64,000 nt of DNA from Naegleria gruberi (Eukaryota): assembly GCA_000004985.1 (NCBI GenBank), contig GG738849.1; one strand, 5' to 3'. The notes under the pieces were generated by a model. The model ran no database searches and was not told the origin of the DNA. It worked only from the letters and a program-made list of their open reading frames with translations. Positions 1 to 12,332 of the stretch are shown piece after piece. How positions within the stretch are numbered: the first letter of the stretch is position 1; each line of letters starts with the position of its first letter. Both the position numbers and the translations under genes were made by a program.

Positions 1-264
1 TACCATCATGTATGGTCATTTCCCAATACTTATTATTATCCAAGTTACCCACCAACGAACAACACCTACGACACTATCTTGTTACAAAATAGAAACCACT
101 TCCTCTCCAACACGACTATTTTCAATTCCTTAATATCCTTTTCATCAACATTCTCTGTGAGGAAAGTCCACGCATATGGAACACCTCTCTTATTGGAAAG
201 TATTCAAAATGAAATTGAGTTAAATTTCATGAAGTATGAAGGTAACCCGATCGTGATTGTTTAG
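1..264 (+). CDS. Possible 3'-terminal coding fragment of a gene that starts upstream of the window. Its predicted tail is low-complexity and Y/P/T/N-rich (...YPSYPPTNNTY...EGNPIVIV*).
   Basis: Frame 1 is open from nt 1 to the TAG at 262-264 (88 codons with no stop). There is no recognisable domain. The six-frame track only shows the part from an internal Met (79..264). It could instead be UTR. Confidence 0.3.
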   Translation, partial: YHHVWSFPNTYYYPSYPPTNNTYDTILLQNRNHFLSNTTIFNSLISFSSTFSVRKVHAYGTPLLLESIQNEIELNFMKYEGNPIVIV

Positions 265-403
265 ATAGTGCTTCCTCCTCTAGTACCCTATCAAGTCACA
301 AATCAACATACAAATGTTGTAGTCTGTGGGATTCTCTTTTCAAAAAAAAGTAACAATCATTATCGTTGTCTAGTTGACTTGAATTGTTATTAGTTGATAC
401 AAA

Positions 404-2632
404 ATGTTTAGAAAGGGATTTCTGTTACTGCTAATTCTTTCACTGTTGGTGATAGCTGGTTTTTACACACAGTCAACTGTGGCGACTCTAGTTAACTCAA
501 ATACTTATCCAAGTGCAAATGTAATTTCTACGAGTGATGGGTTTAAAATGTATTGGAGATTATTGGCAGGAAATGGCACCAATTCCATTATTGAAATTGC
601 AATCATTGCTACTGGATGTGCCAGTGGATGGGTTGGTTTAGGAATAGATCACGACGTTTCGAGTGGTATGTCAAATGTTGATACAGTGATGGCAAGGTTT
701 GTACGAAATATTTCACATTATTTATAATTTGATGATGAAACTTTTATTATCCGTATGATGATGATGTTTAGATATACTGGATCAATTGATATCAAAGATA
801 TGTACTTGGCTACAAATTCACGATCAGCTCCTATTCAAGATACTATTGACAATTTGATTTTCAAAGATGGTGGAGTGAGTGGAAGTGATCTTCATGTGAT
901 TTTCAGAAGATACTTGAATACTGGAGATAGTTCAAGAGACAAAATTATTAGAAACGAAACTATGAGGTTCAGTTATGCCTACTCTTTATCTTCCAATGAT
1001 TTCCAATCATATCACGATAAGACTGGAAAGTTCACGACCAATTTGCTCTTGATTGCTACAAATTCATCAAGTGGAGGCACCACAACAGGCACTACAAATA
1101 ATCTCTATAATTTCCATCTGATTGTTACGGGAATCATGTTTGTGATTGTACTTTCATTGGGCATTGTCTTTACATTTATTCCAGTTTTGGTTAAACCAAA
1201 TCTACTGACAGATTTGATTTTATATAGAAGATTTTGCAAAGTTTCGACAAACAAATACTTGGGAGGAATGATTAATTCATTGGCTGACTTGACCATTGGA
1301 GAAGTTTTAATCGTGTCATCATATTGGCTCATTCTAGCTGCTTGGGCAGTTTATGGAGGTATTTCGGCAAGCTCATTCCCAGCTGGAAGAGCTTTTGCTT
1401 ATGTGAATGTTTGGAATTTTAGTTTGATACTATTCCCTTTGAGTAGATATTCAGTTTTACTTGCCCTGTTCGGTATTTCATTTGAGAGAGCTATCAAATT
1501 CCACAAATGGTTGGGAAGATCAACTCACTTCTTTGTTACTGTTCACTTCCTTGCCATGTTGATTGAAAATGCAATGATCAATAATGCTGCCTATTTGTGG
1601 TCAATGTCAACAATTAATTATCCTCTCTTGGGTTTTATTTCTTGGATTTTATTGAGTATTCTAGTGATGGGAACTTTTGAGCCAATTAGAAGAAAGTTGT
1701 GGGAACTTTTCTATGGTTCACATATTATTCTTGCTGTTCTAGTGATTGGATTATCCATTGCACACGGTAGAGGATGGATTACATTACTCCCTTATATGGC
1801 TGCAAGTATTCTCTTGTATTTGATTGATTTGCTATTCAGATGGGTATTTGGCTTTGGAATTCCAACAAAGGTTGTTGGTATTAGTTATAATGAGGATTGT
1901 AGTGTAACAACCGTTACTTTCCAGAAGAGATTTTTGACCTTCCTTAATATTGGAGGAAAACCTGGAAAGGGTTCATTTATTTTTGTTTATTTGCCTTCAG
2001 TTTCTCCTTTCGAATATCATCCATTTACTGTGAGTAGTTACAAGGAATTGGATAAGAAGGGAACCTATGAATTTACATGCCATGTCAAGAATCATCATGG
2101 TAAGGGTTATGGAAACAAGTTGGCCAATCTTGCCAAATCCAATCCAGATGTTAGTCGTCTATTTGCCAGAGTTGAGGGAGCATTTGGAAATCTCTCCATT
2201 CCTATTCAACATTATCAAACCGTCATCTTAATTAGTGGTGGTATTGGTATTACATTTGTTCATTCACTCCTCGATGGTCTAGTTCAGAGAGGAGAAGACA
2301 AGTCAAAGAAGATTCACTTGTGGTGGTCATTCAGACATCCCTCAATGTTGGATTTATTCCCAACGATTAAGAATAATTCATCTATCGAAAAGGAACTTTT
2401 CCTCACTGGAAAGGACACTGAGATGGGTTCTCATTCTCACAGTGACATTAAAATGTCAAGAATGGACGTTAAACAATTACTGGAAAAGGTGAAGAGTAAT
2501 ACCAATGATTCCTATGTTGGAGTATTCGTCTGTGGACCAACTCAATTAATTTCCACTGTACAAAATGCAATTTTCGATGTGAATGGTGGAGGTACTAGAT
2601 TCCATCTCCACAAGGAAGTATTTGAATTTTAA
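404..2632 (+). CDS. Secreted DOMON-domain ferric reductase / NADPH-oxidase-like transmembrane flavocytochrome. It has 2 exons (404..696 and 772..2632) and encodes about 717 aa.
   Basis: Exon 1 carries a signal peptide (MFRKGFLLLLILSLLVIAG) and DOMON-like motifs (FKMYWRL, GWVGLGI, GMSNVDTVMAR). The exon-1 ORF and the 625-aa ORF are in the same frame, separated by a stop. Removing a 75-nt intron (697..771, AAG|GTTTGT...TGTTTAG|A, length a multiple of 3) rebuilds an AGA codon and fuses them. The Met run MMMM at 755 is intron sequence. Exon 2 continues the DOMON domain and then has about 6 TM helices. There are two bis-heme His pairs 13 residues apart (FHKWLGRSTHFFVTVHF and GSHIILAVLVIGLSIAHG). 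The FAD motif HPFTVSS is at nt 2018-2038 and the NADPH motif ISGGIGITF is around nt 2231-2257. The C-terminal motif is FVCGPTQL. AATAAA overlaps the TAA stop at 2631-2636. Confidence 0.8.
697..771 (+). other. Intron of 75 nt with GTTTGT donor and TTTAG acceptor.
   Basis: This is the only GT...AG pair that keeps the two same-frame ORFs in frame and completes the DOMON domain. Confidence 0.7.
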
Positions 2633-2735
2633 TAAATTCATGAAATATTCTACTAAAACTCCCTCAATCAGAAATATATTAACAAACAGCCATTCAGAGC
2701 TATAGCTCTCTTCAATATTTTCCAACCTTAAAAAA

Positions 2736-3675
2736 ATGAAACTCTATGATCTACCAACGGAATTGTTGCAAGAAATTTTCAGTTTTCTCTTTAATTTGAG
2801 GGAGAGCAAGAAGACTCTCTATAATTCGCTTATTGAGGCAAGACAGTCGCTTCAACAAATTTGTCAAATGCAACAAGTTTGTACTACTTTTCGATCATCG
2901 GAGGAAATTATTGAATTATTTAATGATTTAATGTGGAGTTTATTCTGCAAGAGTTTTCCCTCTGCACTGATCGAAAATCTAGTCGAATTGTGTGGTGATG
3001 AATTTGAGGAGGAAATTCTAGAGCCAATTCGGAAGAAACATTTGATGAGGAAATACATTACTGGATTGATGAGAAAAATTGGAAAATTATCTTCATCAAG
3101 CGATAATTTAAAAGTATTATTTCTTGGTAAATATTAAATTATATAATATTTCAATTTTTATTAAAAATTTGGAAATTTATTTAGGAAATGGAAAGACAAC
3201 TTTATTGAAAAAGCTATCAGGTGGCAGATTTAAATCAATTGTAGGGTCCATTAAGAAAAAGATTAATCAAATTGGAAACGTTTCATTTGTATGCATGGAA
3301 CCAACTAATGAGACAACTTGTTTCCGTCTCATTTCCACCATGGAAAATAGATTTGATTGTTTTGTGATTGTAAATTATCCAGTGGATAATCGTGTGGGTA
3401 GTAATATAGTGCTACAATATCCTATGGATTTTAAAGATATTTCTGTATCAGTTGACTTTCCAATAGTTATTGTAATGAAGAATTGTTTTGTTTTGGGAGT
3501 GAGAAGTTTATTTTCTGATTTCAAGAATGTATCAATTATTGTAACTGAAGATGATGAAAGTGAGTTTTCAACAGGTAAAATTTTAGAGGAGGTTTATTTC
3601 AGAACATTCAAAACTAAACAGAATTTGCTGGATATTCTAATAGAGGAGGCAAAAAGTTTACAAAAATATGATTGA
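2736..3675 (+). CDS. F-box protein with a C-terminal degenerate Arf/Arl-like P-loop (pseudo-GTPase-like) domain. It has 2 exons (2736..3126 and 3185..3675) and encodes about 293 aa.
   Basis: The N-terminus has a canonical F-box (MKLYDLPTELLQEIFSFLF). The first ORF ends at ...KVLFLG|GTAAAT. A 58-nt intron (3127..3184, acceptor TTTATTTAG|G) joins it in phase 1 to the second ORF, rebuilding a GGA codon. The junction gives KVLFLGNGKTTLLKKL, an Arf/Arl/Sar-style G1 motif (GKTT[IL]LxKL). Downstream, NVSFVCMEPTNE aligns to the Arf ISFTVWDVGGQD region with DxGGQ lost. FDCFVIVNYPVDNR aligns to GLIFVVDSNDR. PIVIVMKNCF aligns to LLVFANKQD with NKxD degenerate. The stop is TGA at 3673-3675. Confidence 0.65.
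3127..3184 (+). other. Intron of 58 nt (GTAAAT...TTTAG).
   Basis: The two ORFs overlap in different frames (2736..3137 and 3124..3675). Only this splice restores one continuous frame and creates the P-loop. Confidence 0.6.
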
Positions 3676-3684
3676 AATTATTGC

Positions 3685-3800
3685 AAATTTCTCATCAATT
3701 TTCCAACAAAAATTCAACTCTCATTAAGAAAGCAGTTTATTGTGGGCCAATAATTGAGATAGGATTTGTGTAAAGTTGGGTCTATTGGATGGCTCTTGGT
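3685..3800 (-). pseudogene. Truncated duplicate of the 3' end of the TKL kinase gene (last ~25 codons plus ~40 nt of 3' UTR). It is a gene-fragment relic or short dispersed repeat.
   Basis: About 116 nt at 3685-3800 are ~94% identical to 8391-8506. On the - strand copy A reads ...YQEPSNRPNFTQILSQLLAHNKLLS* against ...WDQEPSNRPNFTQILSQLLTINELLS* in the intact gene. An in-frame TGA sits at the upstream edge of the homology, and no kinase sequence lies further upstream. Confidence 0.6.
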
Positions 3801-3997
3801 ATCATGATTACTTTCAACCAACAAGCTGCACAAGGCCCAGCAACATTCTAAAAAGGCTAGAGCAATTCAGTTTATTTAATATTCCAAAATTATTCGCTAA
3901 AAAATGAGTTTTAAACAAGCTTCTATTATTTAACTCAATTTTTCTAAAGTCTCCCATAATAACATTTCATACACAAATCAAAAGTATATAATAGAAT

Positions 3998-6900
3998 TTA
4001 GTAATTTCTATTTGCAATCATTTGTTTGAGAATTTCCTTCTTGCTCAAATTGGTCGTTGGCTTTAACCAAGACATGTTATCATAATTTTTCTTCAAAAAG
4101 CTTGACAAGACACTTCTACTTGGGAATAAATCTTTCAAATACATAATGGAAGCAATTTCGTATGGAGTAAGACCAAAGGCATTAATTGCATTAACATCAG
4201 CTCCATACTTTGTGACCAAAAGTTTGGCAAGTCCAATATTTGATGGATCCAAACAGGCAAGATGTAATGGAGTCATTAAACGGAGTGTTGGAATATTGAT
4301 AAGCTTTGGTTGTTTGTCGAGAACTGCTGTTATGATTTCTGTAGGTATACCAGTACGTTGGCTGGCCAAAATTGTGAGGCAAGTATATCCATTATCATCT
4401 CTGTACAAGAGATCTTCAGGTGACATATTTTCAATCAAGGTAAGGACGAATGGAACTGATCTCACCATGCTTGCCATCAATAAATTCAAAATGCTTGTCT
4501 CAATAATTCTTGGAGATTCAAATAACATAGCCTTTTGATCAAGTTCAAATGCTGGAACAGTTTGATTTAAATCAGAGATTTGACCATTGTAAATCATTTG
4601 AACGAGAGTAGCTTGTCTATTAAATTTGACTTCATCAGTAGAATCCAAAAAGTTGCAATAAGTTTTGGAGAAATCTTCTGAATATGGATCAGGGGTAGAT
4701 TTGGCGGATTGCATGTAAGTGATTCCTCCAAATACTTCTCTGAACTTTCCTAAACAAGTACACAAAGTTACAAGATTATCGATCAGTCTGATATCATCAT
4801 AGCTTGAAGTTAACATGGCAATAAGCTTGTCGGTAGTGATTTGAACCTTTTGCTTTTCATAATCAGGATGTGACTTTGGTTTAGTAAAGTATCTAAAGAA
4901 GACTTGCAAGGCTCTAACTTTTTGATCTGTAGAAAGCTCTTCTGTGCAGTTTGAGTCAGCTTCCACTTTCTTCAAGGTTTCTTCCAAATTATCAAGGCCT
5001 TGGAAATCTGAAATTTGAGACAGACTCTGTGCTAATAGTTCAATTGATCCATTTTCATAGAATAATTTGGCCATATAAAGATCTAAAAGGATGGTCTTGT
5101 CAAGATAGTATCCATTGATCTTACTACATTTACCAACCATGACTGAGAACATGAACTCTTCAAAGACGTGAGGATTCTTGAAGATATTCATACCAAAGTA
5201 TAACAAGACGTGACACCAGTGGAAGCTACCATCATAAATGATAGAATCTGGGTGGAGAAGGCTTTCTTCAGACTTGTTGTTATGATAGATGAGATATTCT
5301 TCAATAACTCTCTTTTCTTCTATGTGTTCGTAGTTGTAGGTATCTATAGCAGAATAAGGAATTTTGGATTTGATGCAATAATCAATAATTTCCTTCTTCT
5401 TAATGATGGATAATCCAGGGGATTGGGTCAATAATTGATTGATCAATGGTAGGAATTCTAATCTTTGTTCAGTCATTGCAGTTATTGGTCCTATCAAGTC
5501 CTTGTCAAGTTGGGCAACAAGAATGGCTCTGATAACCAATCTCTTTTCGTCTTCTCTATCGAGCATTGGACGAACAGTTAGAGCACCAGTAATATCGGCA
5601 GGGGTTTCTTGATTATCATCGTCATTATTTGTAAAGCCATCTTTTAAAGTATCTACTACCTTTTGAGGTTTACCTTCAAATAAGAAATAGAACTTGTCAT
5701 AAAACTTCTTCAAAACATCCTTGGCTGACTCAATATCAGCTGTTGTACTGGTATAAACGTTGGTCATCTGGGTATTGGAATCTGAATTTTCTCTTGTTTT
5801 TCCCAAAAAACTGATTTCCTTCATATTTGGGAAGAGTGTAGCAAGATATCCAATTTCAGTACCAAGAGAATATACATAATCACCATATGGGGCTAACTTG
5901 ACCTTTTTAACATTGTTAGCAAAGCAGGATCTGAGGAGATTCTTACTAACACTATCAAATTCTTGCAACTCTTCGAAATCGAAATATGATTTAATGGCCA
6001 AAGGATCCTTTGAAAGCCCATCAAGTTTTCCAGCATTAGGATAGAAGGATCTATCATTTGAGAAAACAAATGAAAGATTATCGAGTACAAAGTTAACAAA
6101 GGTAATCTCCTCAATATGACTACCACATACAGTACCTTTAACCAAGCTAGGATCAACAATCTTTGGAATTGTCTTACCATTCTCCAACAAGATATGTAAC
6201 AATATATTGTTCAAGAAGTTATAACTTTGGAAATTGATTAAGCTGATGGACTTGAATAACTTGTAAGTTTCCTCATGCCATTCACTGAACAGATCAGGAA
6301 GGGCTTTCCTAAGGGACAAACGAACCAAAGCGCAAAGATAAGTTTCGTATGTGTAAACAGGAGAGTATGCTAGAGTGTGAGGAGTCAAAATAAACTCGTG
6401 ATTCATTCTTGGAATACCCTCTGGGAAGTATTTTTTGTAAAGTTCAGATGGTTCCATATTGTCAAAGTTATCATTCAACAAATCCAACCCAATTTCTGTA
6501 GTGTCAACTGTTAATGGTAGTTTAGATTATGATAGCGACTTAAAATACTTACGTTCTAGAACTATATCGGCTCCTTTTGGACGTTTTTTGATCTTGTCCT
6601 TCTTGCTTGATTGGGTGACCAGACGTGAAAAGTTGGAAATCATATAATTATTATTCATAGTTTGTTGATTGAGTTCATCAACTAAATCTGCTTCAGTAGT
6701 TTCTTCATCTTGTGCTTCTTCATCTTGACTTTCTTTTTTGTCAACTTGAAGGAAAGTATCCTCTTCTACATCAACTTCAAGCGTTTCTTCTTTTTCTAAC
6801 TTTTCGTCAGTTTTAGCTTCCTTCTTGGTTTCTTCATCAACTTCAATATCTAAATCATCCACGTTATTGTTATAATAATTGAGTCTATAGGATGGAATAG

Positions 6901-8048
6901 AACCTCCAATGGTAAAAGTTCCAGTTTCGGTATCTGTTTTCAAAAGGAACATTTCACTCCAATTGGATTTCAAGCATCCATAAACCTTTGGGCAATTTTT
7001 GTAGATGCCTTCATCTTCAAAGTGATCCAACTTTTTGGAGTGGTACCTCTTTTTAGCATTGATAAAACAGAGCAAGTGAGCATATTTTGACAAGAAGAGG
7101 TCAATATTATTTTCTGGTTCAAATGCATTAGTTCTTGGTGAATAGAAACGAATGAAAATGGAAGCAATATTCAAAGAATCGCATTCATTCATTAAATATT
7201 CTTGCATTCTTGTGTTAAATGTCTTTGAAATTGCACGATACTTGTGATATGTTACAAATACTGAATCAATGGTTTCAGTACAAAAGTTATTTGGAGTATT
7301 GGAAAAATACTTTTTAAACTGGAATATGGTACTAGATTCTCTTTCGAATGGAAGTTTGCTAGATGTTGGAATCATGGTAATAATATGGAATTTCAACTCG
7401 AAATCAAAATGTTCTCTAATAAGTTCACATAATTCTTCCAATTTCTCAGATGACTCATCAGCGCTTTTTTCAACAATAGTTTTTTCTATTAATTCAATTA
7501 TTAATCATTGTAGTTCATAAAGAGATAACAAACCTTCACTCTTCTTTCTATCTGCATCAGTCCAGATCTTACTCAAAGGTGTCATTTTCTCACCTTCAGC
7601 AGCTTCAAAATCAACAGAGGATGAATAAACCTTCGGATCAAGATTCTACAACCATCATCAGTTGTGTGATATTAAATTTGATCAAAATTATTACAAAATC
7701 ACAAGGAAAAACAAACCTCAACTTTTGGAAATTTAGCCATTCCATTATTCCAATAGGCTTGGGCATAATTAGTATATTTTGATTTATCCTTGTGATATTG
7801 TGGAATTGTTTCTATATTATGATCATTTAATAATATTCATATATTAACAACATAATAACATGATCGGATGGAATGATAGGAATCACACATTAATATGTTC
7901 ATATATAATAATCTTCATTAGCAATCTAACAACACATTCAAAAAAACAAACCTTTGATCGGGGTTAAAATAGCCTCTCCCACACGATCATGAATCATCTC
8001 CAACAAATTACTAGCACTGGTAATATCCAACCCGAAAGGACCGTTCAT
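3998..8048 (-). CDS. Large protein of about 1250 aa with C-terminal ankyrin repeats and no recognised N-terminal domains, encoded in 5 exons. The exons in + coordinates are 3998..6507, 6553..7485, 7534..7645, 7717..7811 and 7952..8048.
   Basis: The 829-aa ORF (3998..6487) and 304-aa ORF (6527..7441) are in the same frame, split by a single TAA. A 45-nt intron (6508..6552, GAAC|GTAAGT...ATTAACAG|TT) removes the stop with matching phases (1+2). The C-terminus has ankyrin repeats (TPLHLACLDPSNIGLAKLLVTKYGADVNAINAFGLTPYEIA). Three further 5' introns, all with GTTTGT donors, are 7486..7533 (48 nt, acceptor AATAG), 7646..7716 (71 nt, acceptor TTGTAG) and 7812..7951 (140 nt, acceptor ATATAG). These link phase-compatible open exons back to an ATG at 8048-8046 (MNGPFGLDITSASNLLEMIHDRVGEAILTPIK...). 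The alternative start is the ATG at 7585 (MTPLSKIW...). The stop is TAA at 3998-4000. The 3' exons are well supported (0.75). The 5' exons come from splice-signal and phase inference only (0.45). Confidence 0.65.
6508..6552 (-). other. Intron of 45 nt (GTAAGT...AACAG) removing the in-frame TAA between the two large ORFs.
   Basis: It has a perfect GTAAGT donor, the reading frame is identical on both sides and the splice phases are compatible. A second in-frame acceptor 12 nt downstream (CTACAG) is also possible. Confidence 0.65.
7486..7533 (-). other. Intron of 48 nt (GTTTGT...AATTAATAG).
   Basis: It joins MTPLSKIWTDADRKKSE to EKTIVEKSADESSEKLEELCEL... with phase 1 on both sides. Confidence 0.5.
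7646..7716 (-). other. Intron of 71 nt (GTTTGT...TTGTAG).
   Basis: The acceptor lies exactly at the start of the open frame NLDPKVYSSS.... The upstream 95-nt exon is open in the matching phase. Confidence 0.45.
7812..7951 (-). other. Intron of 140 nt (GTTTGT...ATATAG).
   Basis: It joins the ATG exon (8048..7952, ending AAAG|GT) to the 7811..7717 exon, and phase 1 plus 2 completes a GAA codon. Confidence 0.4.
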
Positions 8049-8077
8049 TCTTCTCCCTCTTGATGATTTGGATTTTT

Positions 8078-8269
8078 TTATGTTTTGATTTTGTGAAGGA
8101 AATTGGCACCATGTTCGATCAATGTTCCATAAAACGCATTACAATGGGATGTTGTGACGTAATTATCATGATTATCTTGGTGTTTATTGGGAGTTTCATT
8201 TTCTTTTGAATTTTCTCTTGAGATAATCAAAATATTGTGCTCAACACTCAAAAAAAAGACATCTTTCAT
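8078..8269 (-). CDS. Small 63-aa ORF upstream of the ankyrin gene. It may be an upstream ORF or 5' leader, or it may not be a real gene.
   Basis: It runs ATG...TAA (MKDVFFLSVEHNILIISRENSKENETPNKHQDNHDNYVTTSHCNAFYGTLIEHGANFLHKIKT) and ends 30 nt before the 8048 ATG in another frame. It has no recognisable motifs. Confidence 0.15.
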   Translation of the reverse strand: MKDVFFLSVEHNILIISRENSKENETPNKHQDNHDNYVTTSHCNAFYGTLIEHGANFLHKIKT

Positions 8270-8390
8270 TATAAGAATTTCATCCTAAGGCTTATTGCCA
8301 TTGGATCAATGACATTAGTTATGAAGGATCCAAATATACAAGTGAATAAAGCAATTAACATCATTAGGGTATTGTATTGTAAATAAAATC

Positions 8391-8506
8391 AAATTTCTCA
8401 TCAATTTTCCAACAAAAATTCAACTCTCATTAAGACAGCAGTTCATTGATGGTCAATAATTGAGATAGGATTTGTGTAAAGTTGGGTCTATTGGATGGCT
8501 CTTGGT
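8391..8506 (-). repeat. Copy B of the ~116-nt duplicated segment. This is the genuine 3' end of the kinase CDS plus its 3' UTR, and the master copy of the fragment at 3685-3800.
   Basis: It aligns with 3685-3800 with about 6 mismatches. Weaker similarity extends about 15 nt further (8371-8390 against 3671-3684). Confidence 0.7.
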
Positions 8507-11487
8507 CCCATGTTTGCTTCATCAATTCAATAAAGAACTCGACTGATTTGAGCAGTTTTTCATTTGGTCCATCGGTTGTGAAATAGTTTCTATCTGAATC
8601 CCTCATAAAACTATTCATCCACTCACTCAATTGAATTCGTGTTGTAAAAGGAATTTTAGGTCGAAGTCCATCATTAGAAACCTTGAAAATAATATTAAAA
8701 GCATTGACTCTCTCATTTTCTAATGGAGGAGAGAAATAATGAATCTTTCTCGATTCCTCATTTAAAAATGGATTTTCCTCAAAGAATAATTCAAACATTA
8801 CAATTGCAAATGAATAGACATCAATCTTATGCAAGAGATCACTCTGTTTTTTCATGTCAGAGTTAATCATTTCTGGACTCATATAGAGCAAAGTTCCGAC
8901 TGTAGCAGTGTAGAGAGAATGTCTTGATCCATTATTAATGGTTTTTGAAAGTCCAAAATCACAAACTTTTGCCTTTCCAGAAGAATTGATGAGAATATTT
9001 GCAGGTTTTAAATCTCTAATTTTCAGAGTTGGTTAATAAATATATTTTAGGAACTATAAACTTACCTGTGAATAATTACTGGATTGAGTCCGTGTAGATA
9101 TTTCATTCCACTATTTGTCGTTCCATTAATTATATTAGAATCCATCAAAAATTTGAAACATACCTTGCGACATCAATGAGAATTCTTAATTTTTGTTTAA
9201 AGGAAATATTCTCCCTTCCACACTTTGACTCGTAGATAATTTTGTCAAGACTTCCCTTGTCCATATATTCAACAACCATGAATTTCTTAGTCTCTGTTAT
9301 GCAAATTCCATAAAAGGACACAATGTGAGGATTTCTCAAGTTGACCAAAAGTGCAACTTCTTTTTCAAATTCTTCCTCATCTGTATTTTCTGAATTTTGA
9401 TGAAATGATTTGACAGCAACATCTGTAGAGACATTCCATTTAGCTAAATACACTGATCCAAATCCGCCTTCAGCAATCTTTTTGCTAAATGTTAAATCCT
9501 CAGAATTAATAATAAATTTGGAAATTTTCTTGAGCTTGGTTCTTGGAGTGTTATTTACAGAAAAGTCAGCACTCAGAGACATGGAATCTCTTGTATGGAC
9601 CTCCTCTCCATATGATTGAAATGGACTCTCAAGAAGCTTACGTCCAATATCTTCATCAGCTTGTTCTCTCTTGGTCAATATCGAAACTCTCGCTCTCATG
9701 TACGAAATTTTCTTTACAATCTTTGAGAACAAAAATCCAAAGACACCACCCACTATTACTGCAATTAATAATCCTAAAATTGATAAGCTCACTACCATTG
9801 CTGTTGGAAAACTCTTCACACATTCACTCTCTCCAAGTTCATATCCACTCGGACAATCTCTAAATACCAAATCAATCGATAGACTTTCTGTAATTAGTGA
9901 AAGTGTAAGACTATTTCTGTGAGGAATATCGCGAAAACGTTTTCTTATTTGCAGTCCAATGCCATTAGGAAGGGCAAATTTCGTAATTTCAAAATCATAA
10001 AAGAAATCAAATATTTGAATTCTCTCTTGCATGAGTGCAAATTCGTTTCCCAAAACATCGGCCATTTGTAAAAATTTTAAATCCATTCTCTGTCCAAAGA
10101 AAACTTGAATGCTCTTTGGGTTTTTCACGACACTACTAATTTTACCATCAATGTCAAAAAAAGTAATTTCGAAATCTAAGATTGATTTGATGGGGCTTGC
10201 AAAGCTATTTCCATAAACCGATGCCTGATTGCCATGTATGGTAATATTATTGAGAAAGTTCAAAGTGTCAACATGGGATGTGACAAATAAGCCAGCTCCA
10301 GCAAAGGATGCAATATTATCTATGATAGTGGTATTCTCAACATGGAAAGAAGTTGAGAAATAAAAACCACCTCCACCCCAAGTAGCTCTGTTTCCACTAA
10401 TAACAGTTGATCCCAAGAAACCAAGTTGTTTCACTGAAAATGCGCCGCCAGTTCCTTTGCAATCTACGAACTCTGTTGAAATTGTACTATTACTCATTGA
10501 ATCCAACGAGTTCTCTATAAATATACATTCATTAATTATTAGGCCACTCACATATTCTGTGCCACCACGATAGAAGAGAGCTCCTCCTGATACACTTGCC
10601 CTATTTTTCTCCAAGAGGCACTTGTGAATGCCTCCTACTCCTATATTATTAAAATAAAGAGCTCCTCCACTTCCACCAATTGCCTTATTAGCAATAAAAG
10701 AAGAGCTCACAATATCCAAGATTTGGATTCCAGTCCCAGATATGGCTCCGCCATTGGTTGTTTTACCATTATTGATAAAAGTAGATGATCCACAAGATAA
10801 CGACTTTACATTTTCTACAAATATTGCACTACATCCATTATCTTTGAAATTACTATTTAACAATTCGACACTGGAAGCATGACTAATATGAATCAAGCTT
10901 TTTTGTCCAACTCCACAACGATTTTCTACCATTTCTAAATCTTTCAATGAAATAGATGATGAATATCGAATAGTAAATGCATTTCCTCCCATATCTTTCA
11001 CTTTCAATCCCTTCAAATTAACAGTAAAAACAATTTCTAAATCAAATACGAAATAATCTGTAGAAACGGCATGTTCAGAAAAGCCAATATATGAATCAAT
11101 AAAGTTAAATTGTTGAATGGATCTCAAATTCATTTTCCAATGCAATCCAATAGAAAATTCAACTCGGGACATGTTAAATAATTGGACGTTATTGATATCA
11201 AACTTGTTGTGTGCTTCCACAACCATTGATGTATTTACAATCTCTACAATGTCAGCCGATTCAATCGTTAATCCTACATAAATTAATTGGGAATTGTGAA
11301 TATGAACAGTAATTGAAGCATAAACCTCCACATCCGAAAGAACTGAATTTGACACACTGAGTGCAAAAGTTGGATTGACCAAACAATTCTTCACTCTAGA
11401 ATTTTGAATTTTGTAAAAAGGAGCTTGAACAAAATTCATTTCCACATTCTCCAATCCAACATTATATAAATTACTCAATATCAATTC
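8430..11487 (-). CDS. Receptor-type TKL-family Ser/Thr protein kinase with three parts. The large extracellular region contains Chlamydia-PMP-like (GGA[IL] / pectin-lyase-fold) beta-helix repeats. After it come a single TM helix and an intracellular kinase domain. The resolved exons are 8430..9015, 9066..9110 and 9164..11487. The 5' end runs into the 50-N gap.
   Basis: The 779-aa ORF carries repeated GGAISGTG, GGALYFNN, GGALFYRGG, GGAFSVKQ, GGGFYFSTS and AGAGLFVTS motifs (around nt 10194-10767). A Cys motif (RDCPSGYELGESEC) and a TM helix (FPTAMVVSLSILGLLIAVIVGGVFGFLF, around nt 9727-9804) follow. The kinase subdomain I motif is EGGFGSVYLAKW, and VAVK follows. The ORF ends ...DVAR then a stop, but AG|GTATGT (a 53-nt intron at 9111..9163, acceptor AAATAG) joins it to a 45-nt exon (GMKYLHGLNPVIIH). 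A 50-nt intron (9016..9065, GTAAGT...AATTAG) then rebuilds H-R-D-L-K: HRDLKPANILINSSGKAKVCDFGLSKT...LYMSPE...DVYSFAIVMFELF. The stop is TAA at 8430-8432. HRDLKPAN predicts Ser/Thr specificity. Confidence 0.8.
9016..9065 (-). other. Intron of 50 nt (GTAAGT...AAAATTAG) in the kinase catalytic loop.
   Basis: Splicing creates the canonical HRDLKPAN motif from CAC AG | A GAT TTA AAA. Confidence 0.75.
9111..9163 (-). other. Intron of 53 nt (GTATGT...AAATAG) in the kinase domain.
   Basis: It removes the in-frame TGA after DVAR and yields DVASGMKYLHGLNPVIIHRDLK, which matches subdomain VIa/b. Confidence 0.7.
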
Positions 11488-11537
11488 NNNNNNNNNNNNN
11501 NNNNNNNNNNNNNNNNNNNNNNNNNNNNNNNNNNNNN
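11488..11537. other. Assembly gap of 50 N, the conventional length for an unsized scaffold gap.
   Basis: It is a literal run of n and lies inside the receptor-kinase ectodomain coding region. The frame is open on both flanks. Confidence 1.
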
Positions 11538-11674
11538 TAGATAAACTTCTAGTAAGGACTGTCGAACCCTCTTGCTTCCAAAATCAAAATACCAACAAGG
11601 ATAGTTTCCATCAAGAATCCTCCTAACATTGACTCGACCGTTATATTTTACATATTTAACACAGTTATTTGGTA
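11538..11674 (-). CDS. Open reading segment on the far side of the gap, probably an exon of the receptor-kinase ectodomain (...RILDGNYPCWYFDFGSKRVRQSLLEVYL, reading into the gap). The true 5' acceptor is unresolved.
   Basis: The - strand frame is open from the TGA at 11675-11677 down to 11538, with no Met. One candidate acceptor is GTTAG|G at 11623-11624. It is on the same strand and orientation as the kinase ORF that resumes at 11487. Confidence 0.35.
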
Positions 11675-11879
11675 ATCATAACAATACATTGGATTGCCAT
11701 TCTTTCTATCTTATCGATTGGGTAGACGAAGAGTTACAGCAGTGATTTGTGAATGGTGCAGTAACCAACTTTCAAGTAGGTGGTTGACTTGTTAACATGA
11801 AAATCAAACCAGCTCTATTCACAATTCCTTCCTATCATTTAGGAATCCAATCTTTGTGCTACTTTTTGCAACACCTTAC

Positions 11880-11939
11880 TGGCAGGACAATCGATAATCT
11901 CAAAATGAGAAGTAGCAATATTACACGTTCAATTGCCAT
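11880..11939 (-). CDS. Candidate first exon of the receptor kinase encoding the signal peptide (MAIERVILLLLILRLSIVLP), followed by a GTAAGG donor.
   Basis: The ATG is at 11939-11937 (- strand). A 20-codon hydrophobic leader ends exactly at CCA|GTAAGG. It lies ~150 nt downstream (- sense) of the proteasome gene stop. I could not find an intermediate exon or acceptor to the next segment that keeps phase 0. Confidence 0.4.
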
Positions 11940-12087
11940 GTATTGATTGGTTCAGATTCTTACAACCTCTCATAGATGCTACATCAGTACTATCGCCACA
12001 AACAATATGAAGAAGTGGAAAGCAAAGGTGTAATTCTGTTTAGTTTGTTTTTAATAATAAATATTTTACAGATCATCAGTAGATGAT

Positions 12088-12330
12088 TTAATCGACCATT
12101 TCATCGATCTTCTTTGATGAAGTATCCAATAAATTCAAATAATTTTCAATATCATCATCCTCATATAAAGTGAATTTAAGATCCTTTCCAACAACAGCAA
12201 CTGAACAATTCTTTGTTGTCAATTCTACATTATCTCCAGTTGTTCCTTTAAGGGCCTTCAAGGCATGAACGATAAGATCCTTCCAATCATTTGTGAATGT
12301 ATCGTAATGCTTTTCAAAGTAAGTCTTGGC
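12088..12330 (-). CDS. C-terminal 80 codons of a 20S proteasome alpha-type subunit, partial because it is truncated by the large gap.
   Basis: The - strand frame is open for 81 codons to the TAA at 12088-12090. It reads AKTYFEKHYDTFTNDWKDLIVHALKALKGTTGDNVELTTKNCSVAVVGKDLKFTLYEDDDIENYL..., which aligns to the conserved C-terminal region of proteasome alpha subunits. For alpha-2 the matching region is [28 protein letters not shown]...NIEVGICNE...F..LTP.EVKDYL. Confidence 0.6.
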   Translation of the reverse strand, partial: AKTYFEKHYDTFTNDWKDLIVHALKALKGTTGDNVELTTKNCSVAVVGKDLKFTLYEDDDIENYLNLLDTSSKKIDEMVD

Positions 12331-12332
12331 AC

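What the first reader, a model, noticed from the sequence alone, without database searches (positions are those of the whole stretch)
2736..3675. F-box fused to a degenerate Arf/Arl-like pseudo-GTPase domain
A textbook F-box (LPTELLQEIFSFL) is joined across a 58-nt intron to a domain with the Arf-family G1 signature GKTTLLKKL. The intron splice site itself creates the P-loop: ...FLG|NGKTT.... In this Arf-like domain the P-loop is two residues short. The switch II WDVGGQ is replaced by CMEPTNE, so the catalytic Gln and the DxxG Gly are both lost. NKxD is also degenerate (MKNCF). This suggests a nucleotide-independent Arf-like fold used as the substrate-recognition module of an SCF ubiquitin ligase. 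I do not recognise this combination from characterised proteins.
Basis: partly seen in the sequence, partly recalled or inferred. Interest (0 to 1): 0.55.

Follow-up and report, generated by a model that had tools for sequence, protein, structure and literature searches.

The report
Orphan Naegleria F-box protein, Arf-like remnant
A small two-exon gene in a Naegleria amoeba encodes an F-box protein whose second half begins like an Arf-type GTPase but has lost the GTPase motifs; F-box-to-Arf fusions are already catalogued in other protists, so this is a modest curiosity.

Summary
The observation mostly holds. The window (real DNA only 1-12332, a Naegleria species) carries a two-exon gene: 2736-3126, a 58-nt GT..AG intron, and 3185-3675, giving 293 aa.

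- **Gene model:** Codon usage supports both exons, and this is the only junction that keeps a long reading frame. No RNA data were available.
- **F-box:** Real but borderline. It is at or just above Pfam thresholds.
- **Arf-like part:** Only residues ~115-193 (N-terminal helix, strand 1, P-loop, helix 1, weakly on to strand 4) resemble Arf/Arl/Sar. Pfam Arf scores 15.6-16.4 bits against a cutoff of 22.3. hhalign gives P 1.7e-7, mostly from the P-loop segment.
- **P-loop:** It is three residues short, not two.
- **C-terminal 100 residues:** They match nothing. AlphaFold gave pLDDT 31, so the fold is untested.
- **Relatives:** None were found in 1.84 billion proteins, in metagenomes, or at the syntenic site in other Naegleria.
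- **Precedent:** F-box plus Arf is already catalogued in Physarum, Euglena, Mastigamoeba and Thecamonas (Vargová 2021). The Physarum family has also lost DxxGQ and NKxD.

Verdict: a lineage-specific F-box orphan with a probable degenerate Arf remnant. Interest is low to moderate.

The parts
2736..3126 (+). Exon 1: residues 1-130 plus the first base of codon 131. Holds the F-box, a helical linker, and the start of the Arf-like segment.
   Evidence: ORF from ATG 2736. Codon-usage LLR is +18 bits in this frame only. An ENA metagenome contig (L003) carries the first 95 codons with one amino-acid difference.
2745..2897 (+). F-box (residues 4-54), with an insertion of about 18 aa between helix 1 and the QVCTTF helix.
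   Evidence: PF12937 23.7 bits on the full protein. On the N-terminal 125 aa alone, PF12937 scores 25.4 and PF00646 scores 21.1, both above cutoff.
2898..3077 (+). Linker, residues 55-114, predicted all-helical at low confidence.
   Evidence: AF2 single-sequence model, pLDDT 45, helices only. No family match.
3078..3126 (+). Arf-like segment, part 1 (residues 115-130): an Arl-type helix 'IGKLSSSSDN' followed by strand 1 'LKVLFL'.
   Evidence: Pfam Arf stretch 115-160 maps to profile positions 5-53. Also seen with my own Arf HMMs and hhalign.
3127..3184 (+). Predicted 58-nt intron, GTAAAT...TTTAG, phase 1. It sits exactly where the P-loop is 3 residues short.
   Evidence: GC 8.6%. In-frame stop at 3135-3137 if retained. 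Same size class as other introns in the window. Not verified by RNA.
3185..3675 (+). Exon 2: residues 131-293 plus the TGA stop.
   Evidence: Open for 183 codons in a 33% GC genome. Codon-usage LLR is +37 bits in this frame only.
3185..3201 (+). Shortened P-loop G131-N-G-K-T-T136. Codon 131 is split, with its first base at 3126.
   Evidence: Profile alignments put a 3-residue gap against GLDxAGKT.
3202..3372 (+). Arf-like segment, part 2 (residues 137-193): helix 1 LLKKL, then a weak match to strands 2-3, switch II (MEPTNE) and strand 4 (CFVIV).
   Evidence: hhalign local alignment of query 121-193 to Arf columns 15-92. Score 47.7 against 38.1 +/- 1.6 in shuffles that keep the P-loop segment.
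3373..3672 (+). C-terminal 100 residues (194-293) with no detectable relatives. The flanking stretch includes a weak 14-aa internal repeat (ENRFDCFVIVNYPV / DNRVGSNIVLQYPM).
   Evidence: No family hit. The global Arf alignment loses score here. The internal repeat scores 36, reached by 11 of 500 shuffles.

Best explanation
This is a lineage-specific, fast-evolving F-box protein gene of a Naegleria species.

**What is shown**
- It has two exons separated by one 58-nt intron.
- The N-terminus is an F-box.
- After a helical linker of about 60 residues comes a domain whose first ~75 residues resemble an Arf/Arl/Sar GTPase: the N-terminal helix, strand 1, the P-loop and helix 1, and more weakly on to strand 4.
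- This domain has lost 3 residues of the P-loop exactly at the intron site.
- It has also lost the DxxGQ switch II motif and any recognisable NKxD or G5 motif.
- The last 100 residues are unrecognisable.

**What is inferred**
- The Arf-like segment descends from an Arf/Arl/Sar GTPase.
- The F-box binds Skp1 and brings the protein into an SCF ubiquitin ligase.
- The degenerate GTPase-derived domain no longer cycles GTP. It serves either as the partner- or substrate-binding module, or as a leftover of a once-regulated F-box-Arf protein of the kind known in Physarum and Euglena.
For: - **Gene model:** The junction is unique and the intron is AT-rich and typically sized. Codon usage supports both exons.
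- **F-box:** At or above Pfam cutoffs.
- **Arf specificity:** Arf is the only P-loop family Pfam reports, and the match starts in the Arf-specific helix before strand 1.
- **Extension of the match:** hhalign gives P 1.7e-7 over residues 121-193. It beats all 100 shuffles that keep the P-loop segment (47.7 against a maximum of 45.0). With HMMER, 12 of 1000 such shuffles reach the observed score.
- **Closest N. gruberi relatives:** The best pairwise matches are Sar1b and Arl2, again only over the N-terminal part.
- **Shared layout:** The arrangement matches confirmed F-box-Arf proteins: F-box at the N-terminus, a linker, then the Arf domain starting near residues 113-130.
- **Precedent for motif loss:** The Physarum family has also lost DxxGQ (EVWDxEDF) and NKxD (LATKW).
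- **Organism:** Neighbouring NOX gene matches N. lovaniensis at 60% and Willaertia at 46%.
Against: - The Arf score is below Pfam's cutoff (15.6-16.4 against 22.3).
- The 31-residue P-loop segment alone already gives hhalign probability 92.6, so most of the signal is one motif.
- Everything after helix 1 scores nothing by itself.
- A global alignment lowers the score.
- No Arf protein appears in the exhaustive search, and there are no PDB sequence hits.
- AF2 models are unusable, with pLDDT 31.5 and 45.2.
- There is no specific similarity to the Physarum/Euglena F-box-Arf family beyond two short motifs.
- A weak 14-aa repeat sits where Arf has helix 3.
- No orthologue exists to test selection. 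Only one substitution, nonsynonymous, was seen in the 286 nt shared with a second strain.
Confidence: 0.5

Rival explanations
1. This is an F-box protein with an unrelated, lineage-specific C-terminal domain. The GKTTLLKKL stretch and its hydrophobic lead-in are a chance match or a generic P-loop-like motif, not a remnant of an Arf GTPase.
For: - The Arf hit is sub-threshold and covers about 46 residues.
- With the P-loop masked the score is -1.6 bits.
- The P-loop segment alone gives nearly the full hhalign probability.
- The C-terminal half scores negatively in a global alignment.
- No Arf relatives appear among 1.84 billion representatives.
- GKTT followed by LL also occurs in other P-loop families such as ABC ATPases (my own knowledge).
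Against: - Pfam reports no other P-loop family.
- The match includes the Arf-type helix before strand 1 and extends beyond the P-loop more than shuffles do.
- The position of the motif relative to the F-box matches true F-box-Arf proteins.
Confidence: 0.3
2. This is a decaying or non-functional gene, or a wrong gene model. The F-box ORF may end at 3137 (a 133-aa product if the intron is retained or not an intron), with the downstream ORF being a relic of a former Arf-like exon that is drifting.
For: - It is an orphan. It is absent from the syntenic position next to NOX in N. lovaniensis and two other Naegleria contigs.
- All GTPase motifs are degraded.
- The donor GTAAAT differs from the GTAAGT/GTATGT seen in neighbouring introns.
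- The only polymorphism seen is nonsynonymous.
- Its codon-usage score per codon is lower than that of the neighbours (0.14-0.23 against 0.26-0.38 bits).
Against: - A 183-codon open frame in 33% GC DNA is very unlikely without constraint or recent origin. I estimate about 1e-6, not from a tool run.
- Codon usage is positive only in the predicted frame.
- The splice sites restore the frame exactly.
Confidence: 0.12
3. This is a still-active, non-canonical P-loop NTPase. Read without a gap, LFLGNGKT fits xxxGxGK[ST] and departs from GxxxxGK[ST] only at its first position. The Glu of FVCME could act as a Walker B acid. On this reading the domain still binds a nucleotide that regulates the F-box protein.
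For: Direct reading of the sequence. In the hhalign alignment Glu169 pairs with the Asp of WDVGGQ.
Against: - Profile alignments prefer the 3-residue gap.
- There is no DxxG glycine, no catalytic Gln, and no NKxD or SAx motif for base recognition.
- No family with this motif set was found.
Confidence: 0.08

Closest known systems
Lineage-specific F-box-ARF-family fusion proteins: PpoArlX5 of Physarum polycephalum and relatives, and EgrArlX1/X2 of Euglena gracilis (Vargová et al. 2021, PMC8358228)
   Same: - The order and spacing match: N-terminal F-box, a linker of about 70-100 aa, then the Arf-type domain starting near residue 115-130.
- The Physarum family has also lost DxxGQ and NKxD.
   Different: - Those proteins pass Pfam Arf cutoffs (44-71 bits) and keep a full GxxxxGK[ST].
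- This one scores 15.6-16.4 bits, has a shortened P-loop and has an unrecognisable C-terminal half.
- Profile comparison finds only the LPxE and P-loop motifs in common, at probability 5-13%.
Canonical Arf/Arl/Sar small GTPases (Pfam PF00025), e.g. ARL2/ARL3 and Naegleria gruberi Sar1b/Arl2
   Same: The helix-strand-P-loop-helix opening is shared: 'GLMRKIGKLSSSSDNLKVLFLG---NGKTTLLKKL' against ARL3 '[36 protein letters not shown]' (ARL3 sequence from memory). There is a weak colinear match to strand 4.
   Different: - It is internal rather than N-terminal, so no myristoylated Gly2 is possible.
- The P-loop is 3 residues short.
- There is no WDxGGQ, NKxD or G5 motif.
- It scores below the family threshold.
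TRIM23/ARD1 (RING E3 ligase with a C-terminal Arf domain) and Naegleria gruberi BTB-Arf1 proteins NgrArf1j/k/l
   Same: An Arf-type domain is joined to a module that connects to a ubiquitin ligase (PMC8358228).
   Different: The ligase-linked domain differs (RING or BTB rather than F-box). The Arf domains of those proteins are canonical and presumably GTP-binding.
TbFRP of Euglenozoa (FYVE, F-box and a Rab-like GTPase; PMC3593210)
   Same: An F-box lies upstream of a small-GTPase-type domain in a Discoba lineage. The F-box has been suggested to link the protein to turnover.
   Different: The GTPase is Rab-like and intact, and there is an extra FYVE domain. The authors found no orthologue in N. 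gruberi.

Membership tests
F-box (Pfam PF12937 / PF00646) | Profile score at or above the curated cutoff, over the LPxEhh...hxxVCxxW helices | tested here: met
   The result is borderline. On the full protein PF12937 scores 23.7 against a cutoff of 24.3. On the N-terminal 125 aa alone, PF12937 scores 25.4 and PF00646 scores 21.1 against a cutoff of 20.5. An insertion of about 18 aa splits the domain.
F-box (Pfam PF12937 / PF00646) | Binds Skp1 and assembles into an SCF complex | not testable with these tools
   This needs a pull-down or two-hybrid experiment.
ARF family GTPases (Pfam PF00025) | Profile score at or above the curated cutoff of 22.3 bits, over most of the 174-position model | tested here: not met
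   The score is 15.6-16.4 bits and covers profile positions 5-53 only.
ARF family GTPases (Pfam PF00025) | G1 / Walker A motif GxxxxGK[ST] (GLDxAGKT) | tested here: not met
   The sequence is LFLG-NGKTT. There is a 3-residue gap in all profile alignments. Read without a gap, the first Gly is replaced by Leu.
ARF family GTPases (Pfam PF00025) | G3 / switch II motif WDxGGQ (DxxG plus the catalytic Gln) | tested here: not met
   The aligned residues are MEPTNE. That part of the alignment is low-confidence.
ARF family GTPases (Pfam PF00025) | G4 NKxD and G5 (C/S)A(T/K) guanine-recognition motifs | tested here: not met
   No NKxD is present anywhere in exon 2. MKNC pairs with NKQD only in a forced global alignment that lowers the score.
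ARF family GTPases (Pfam PF00025) | Small-GTPase alpha/beta fold with an interswitch hairpin | tested here: inconclusive
   AF2 without homologues gave pLDDT 31.5. No homologues exist to build an alignment.
F-box-ArlX proteins of Physarum/Euglena (PMC8358228) | Full-length colinear similarity to the family profile (EgrArlX1 against the Physarum family gives probability 98% over 252 columns) | tested here: not met
   The query gives probability 5-13%, matching only the LPxE and P-loop motifs. For comparison.
F-box-ArlX proteins of Physarum/Euglena (PMC8358228) | Architecture: N-terminal F-box, linker, then a C-terminal Arf domain | tested here: inconclusive
   The order and spacing match, but the Arf domain itself is not established.
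PseudoGTPases (GTPase fold retained, nucleotide binding or hydrolysis lost) | Retained GTPase fold together with loss of the G motifs and of nucleotide binding | tested here: inconclusive
   Motif loss is shown. The fold is not shown. Nucleotide binding cannot be tested here.

The most novel reading that the evidence does not exclude
Residues 115-293 still adopt an Arf-like fold that binds no nucleotide. This pseudoGTPase would be the substrate- or partner-recognition module of a Naegleria SCF ubiquitin ligase. It would be an extreme endpoint of the F-box-Arf lineage seen in Physarum and Euglena, with the P-loop shortened by a shift at the intron boundary.
Probability: 0.25. Interest if true: 0.45.

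Novelty: new variant of a known kind. Interest (0 to 1): 0.25.

Why it matters
If the Arf-derived reading is right, the gene adds a Heterolobosean example to the repeated recruitment of Arf-type domains into ubiquitin-ligase proteins (TRIM23, BTB-Arf, F-box-Arf). It would also show how far such a domain can decay while the gene stays open. That is of some use to people studying pseudoGTPases and the turnover of F-box gene families. It does not open a new question. The architecture is already catalogued, the protein is a single-species orphan, and nothing can be said about its targets.

Tried and rejected
- I used window-contiguous pieces instead.
- **AlphaFold2:** AF2 on the 183-aa ORF gave pLDDT 31.5. 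This ORF includes 20 intron-encoded residues that happen to mimic strand 1. AF2 on exon 1 gave pLDDT 45.2. Neither model is good enough for a fold search, so none was run.
- **Forced alignment not attempted:** I did not feed AF2 a forced alignment with Arf proteins. That would impose the Arf fold and make the test circular.
- **Exhaustive phmmer of exon 2:** The single hit, P0001 (E 1.2e-4), is a 14-aa tandem-repeat ORF on short metagenome contigs. I rejected it as a repeat artefact.
- **Internal 14-aa repeat:** That hit drew attention to a 14-aa periodicity in the query. It is only marginal (11 of 500 shuffles reach it), and TRF finds no DNA repeat in the region.
- **Other searches with no result:** The word-indexed protein search found nothing, nor did the PDB sequence search. 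Two JGI metagenome scans, one with exon 2 and one with exon 1, also found nothing.
- **Synteny:** The locus downstream of the NOX orthologue in N. lovaniensis and two other contigs carries HSP20 and a methylase. tblastn of the spliced protein against these loci found nothing.
- **Alternative gene models:** Alternative splice sites, and a frameshift read-through of the 'intron', were rejected. There is no other GT or AG, GC is 8.6%, and the weakly positive codon score of the intron reflects AT-rich codons.
- **Intron gain by duplication:** I considered intron gain by tandem duplication, because exon 1 ends NLKVLFLG and the intron reads NLEIYLG in frame. The DNA similarity is not convincing in AT-rich sequence, so I did not pursue it.

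Full report
**Source and context**

Only bases 1-12332 of the window are real sequence. The rest is N, and there is a 50-N gap at 11488-11537. GC content is about 33%, and the introns are short GT..AG introns of 55-70 nt.

The neighbouring ferric-reductase/NOX gene identifies the organism as a Naegleria species:
- It has a 100% identical protein on an ENA metagenome contig.
- Its best named relatives are N. lovaniensis (60%) and Willaertia magna (46%).
- N. gruberi proteins match at 43% or less and look like paralogues.

The metagenome contig (L003) is 98.9% identical to window 1-3021. It covers only the first 95 codons of the gene in question, with one amino-acid difference, M45L.

**Check of the observation**

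The sequence is as described:
- ATG at 2736.
- An ORF that would stop at 3135-3137.
- A 58-nt GTAAAT...TTTAG intervening sequence (3127-3184) with 8.6% GC, against 30-33% in the flanks.
- A second open frame running to the TGA at 3673-3675.

Joining 3126 to 3185 gives 293 aa and the junction KVLFLG|NGKTTLLKKL. The intron holds no other GT or AG, and the next downstream AG gives a closed frame. This is therefore the only splice that yields a long product.

A codon-usage model trained on the neighbouring genes supports both exons:

| Region | Score in predicted frame | Other frames or comparison |
|---|---|---|
| Exon 1 | +18 bits | negative or near zero in all other frames |
| Exon 2 | +37 bits | negative or near zero in all other frames |
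| Downstream intergenic DNA | n/a | -24 to -36 bits |

The gene model is therefore well supported, but no RNA evidence confirms it.

**F-box**

Pfam F-box-like scores 23.7 bits (E 4e-5) on the full protein, just under the 24.3 cutoff. On the N-terminal 125 residues alone, F-box-like scores 25.4 and F-box scores 21.1, both above their cutoffs. The domain carries an insertion of about 18 residues after the LPTELLQEIFSFL helix. I accept it as an F-box.

**Arf-like part**

*Pfam and HMMER.* Pfam reports Arf (PF00025) as the only P-loop family. The score is 15.6-16.4 bits (E 0.007-0.011), below the 22.3 cutoff, and covers only residues 115-160, which map to profile positions 5-53 of 174.

I built Arf profiles from 8 human sequences written from memory and from Physarum, Mastigamoeba and Naegleria sequences taken from the supplement of PMC8358228. 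They give the same picture:
- The score is about 15 bits, all from residues 115-165.
- With the P-loop masked it falls to -1.6 bits.
- The region after helix 1 alone scores -1.8 bits.
- When the P-loop segment is kept and the rest shuffled, the mean is 8.8 +/- 2.0 bits, and 12 of 1000 shuffles reach the observed value.

*hhalign.* The local alignment runs from residue 121 to 193, from strand 1 to strand 4, with probability 93.8% and P 1.7e-7. The 31-residue head alone already gives probability 92.6%. The full sequence scores 47.7, against 38.1 +/- 1.6 (maximum 45.0, n=100) for shuffles that keep the head. The region after the head, taken alone, finds nothing. A global alignment drops the score from 46 to 33, so the C-terminal ~100 residues are not Arf-like in sequence.

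*Comparison with N. gruberi.* Against 28 Naegleria gruberi ARF-family sequences (searched together with two Euglena F-box-Arf proteins), the best pairwise matches are Sar1b (10.4 bits) and Arl2 (8.6 bits). Both match only over the N-terminal ~45 residues of the domain.

*What this amounts to.* The helix, strand 1, P-loop and helix 1 opening is specifically Arf/Arl/Sar-like, and the similarity probably continues to strand 4. Nothing beyond that can be shown.

*Motifs.* All alignments place a 3-residue gap in the P-loop (LG---NGKTT), not the 2 residues reported. Read without a gap, LFLGNGKT still fits xxxGxGK[ST], so phosphate binding cannot be strictly excluded. The pairing of MEPTNE with WDVGGQ comes from the low-confidence part of the alignment. 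The pairing of MKNC with NKQD comes only from the global alignment.

**Structure**

The 183-aa contiguous ORF gave pLDDT 31.5 and exon 1 gave 45.2. Neither is usable, so the fold question stays open.

**Relatives**

No relative was found by any route:

| Search | Result |
|---|---|
| Word-indexed protein search | nothing |
| Exhaustive phmmer of exon 2 against 1.84 billion representatives | one hit, a tandem-repeat artefact |
| PDB sequence search | nothing |
| Two JGI metagenome scans | nothing |
| Syntenic locus in N. lovaniensis and two other Naegleria-like contigs | NOX is followed by HSP20 and a methylase, with no trace of this gene |

The protein is therefore an orphan at the current level of sampling. 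One caveat applies. In so large a library a 30%-identical orthologue could fall below E 0.001, and the eukaryotic genomes themselves could not be searched by translated search.

**Comparison with what is known**

The fusion is not new.
- Vargová et al. 2021 state that some lineage-specific ARF-family proteins carry BTB or F-box domains (PMC8358228).
- Their table lists F-box or F-box-like domains for Physarum PpoArlX5, two Mastigamoeba Arf1 paralogues and a Thecamonas protein.
- I confirmed F-box plus Arf above Pfam cutoffs for PpoArlX5, a distant relative, and Euglena EgrArlX1/X2.
- PpoArlX5 has a small family of relatives. These keep GxxxxGKS but have EVWDxEDF in place of WDxGGQ and LATKW in place of NKxD. 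Degenerate Arf domains behind an F-box therefore already exist.
- N. gruberi itself has BTB-Arf1 fusions.
- TbFRP, studied experimentally, combines FYVE, F-box and a Rab-like GTPase (PMC3593210).

The present protein shares the layout and spacing of the F-box-Arf proteins. It shows no specific similarity to them beyond the LPxE and P-loop motifs, at probability 5-13%.

**Mechanism**

- **Shown:** an F-box and a degenerate Arf-type opening lie in one open, codon-biased, two-exon gene.
- **Inferred:** the F-box binds Skp1 and assembles into an SCF complex. The C-terminal domain does not cycle GTP and acts as a binding module.
- **Alternatives:** the C-terminal domain may be unrelated to Arf. The gene may be decaying or mis-modelled. 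A non-canonical nucleotide-binding site may persist.

**Verdict**

This is best described as a new, extreme variant of a catalogued kind of protein, in a single species. Interest is low to moderate.

Noticed in passing
window 12333-64000 and 11488-11537: The window is mostly padding. Only 12,332 bases are real sequence, with a 50-N scaffold gap at 11488-11537.
   Followed up: yes
window 404-2632 (+): A two-exon DOMON and ferric-reductase/NOX-type gene, with an intron at roughly 700-770. An identical protein lies on an ENA metagenome contig (L003), which extends about 1 kb beyond the window start and is 98.9% identical in DNA. Of the 14 differences in the large exon, 12 are synonymous, consistent with purifying selection.
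   Followed up: partly
L001 (N. lovaniensis PYSW02000004.1), L002, L004 compared with window 2633-6487: Synteny breaks immediately downstream of NOX. Other Naegleria carry HSP20, a TP_methylase and a kinase-RabGAP gene there. The window carries the F-box gene and an ankyrin-repeat gene.
   Followed up: partly
window 3998-7441 (-): The 829-aa ankyrin-repeat ORF (3998-6487) and the 304-aa ORF (6527-7441) are probably one gene. They appear to be joined by a short GTAAGT...AG intron of about 45-57 nt near 6497-6553.
   Followed up: partly
window 8430-11484 (-): A receptor-type gene with a large repeat-rich extracellular region (GGAL/FxxN-like repeats), one transmembrane segment and a TKL-type kinase domain split by two introns of about 55 nt. 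The 5' end runs into the N gap.
   Followed up: partly
proteins P0002-P0011 and Euglena EgrArlX1 (not in the window): Euglena EgrArlX1 aligns colinearly over 252 columns, from the F-box to the end of the Arf domain, with the Physarum PpoArlX5 family (hhalign probability 98%, E 1e-13). There may be one widespread F-box-Arl family spanning Amoebozoa and Euglenozoa rather than independent fusions.
   Followed up: partly
window 3127-3184: The predicted intron is open in the exon-2 frame. Translated, it ends ...KNLEIYLG, which echoes the end of exon 1 (...DNLKVLFLG). This could be chance in AT-rich DNA or a trace of intron origin by local duplication. The 3-residue P-loop deletion lies exactly at this junction.
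   Followed up: no
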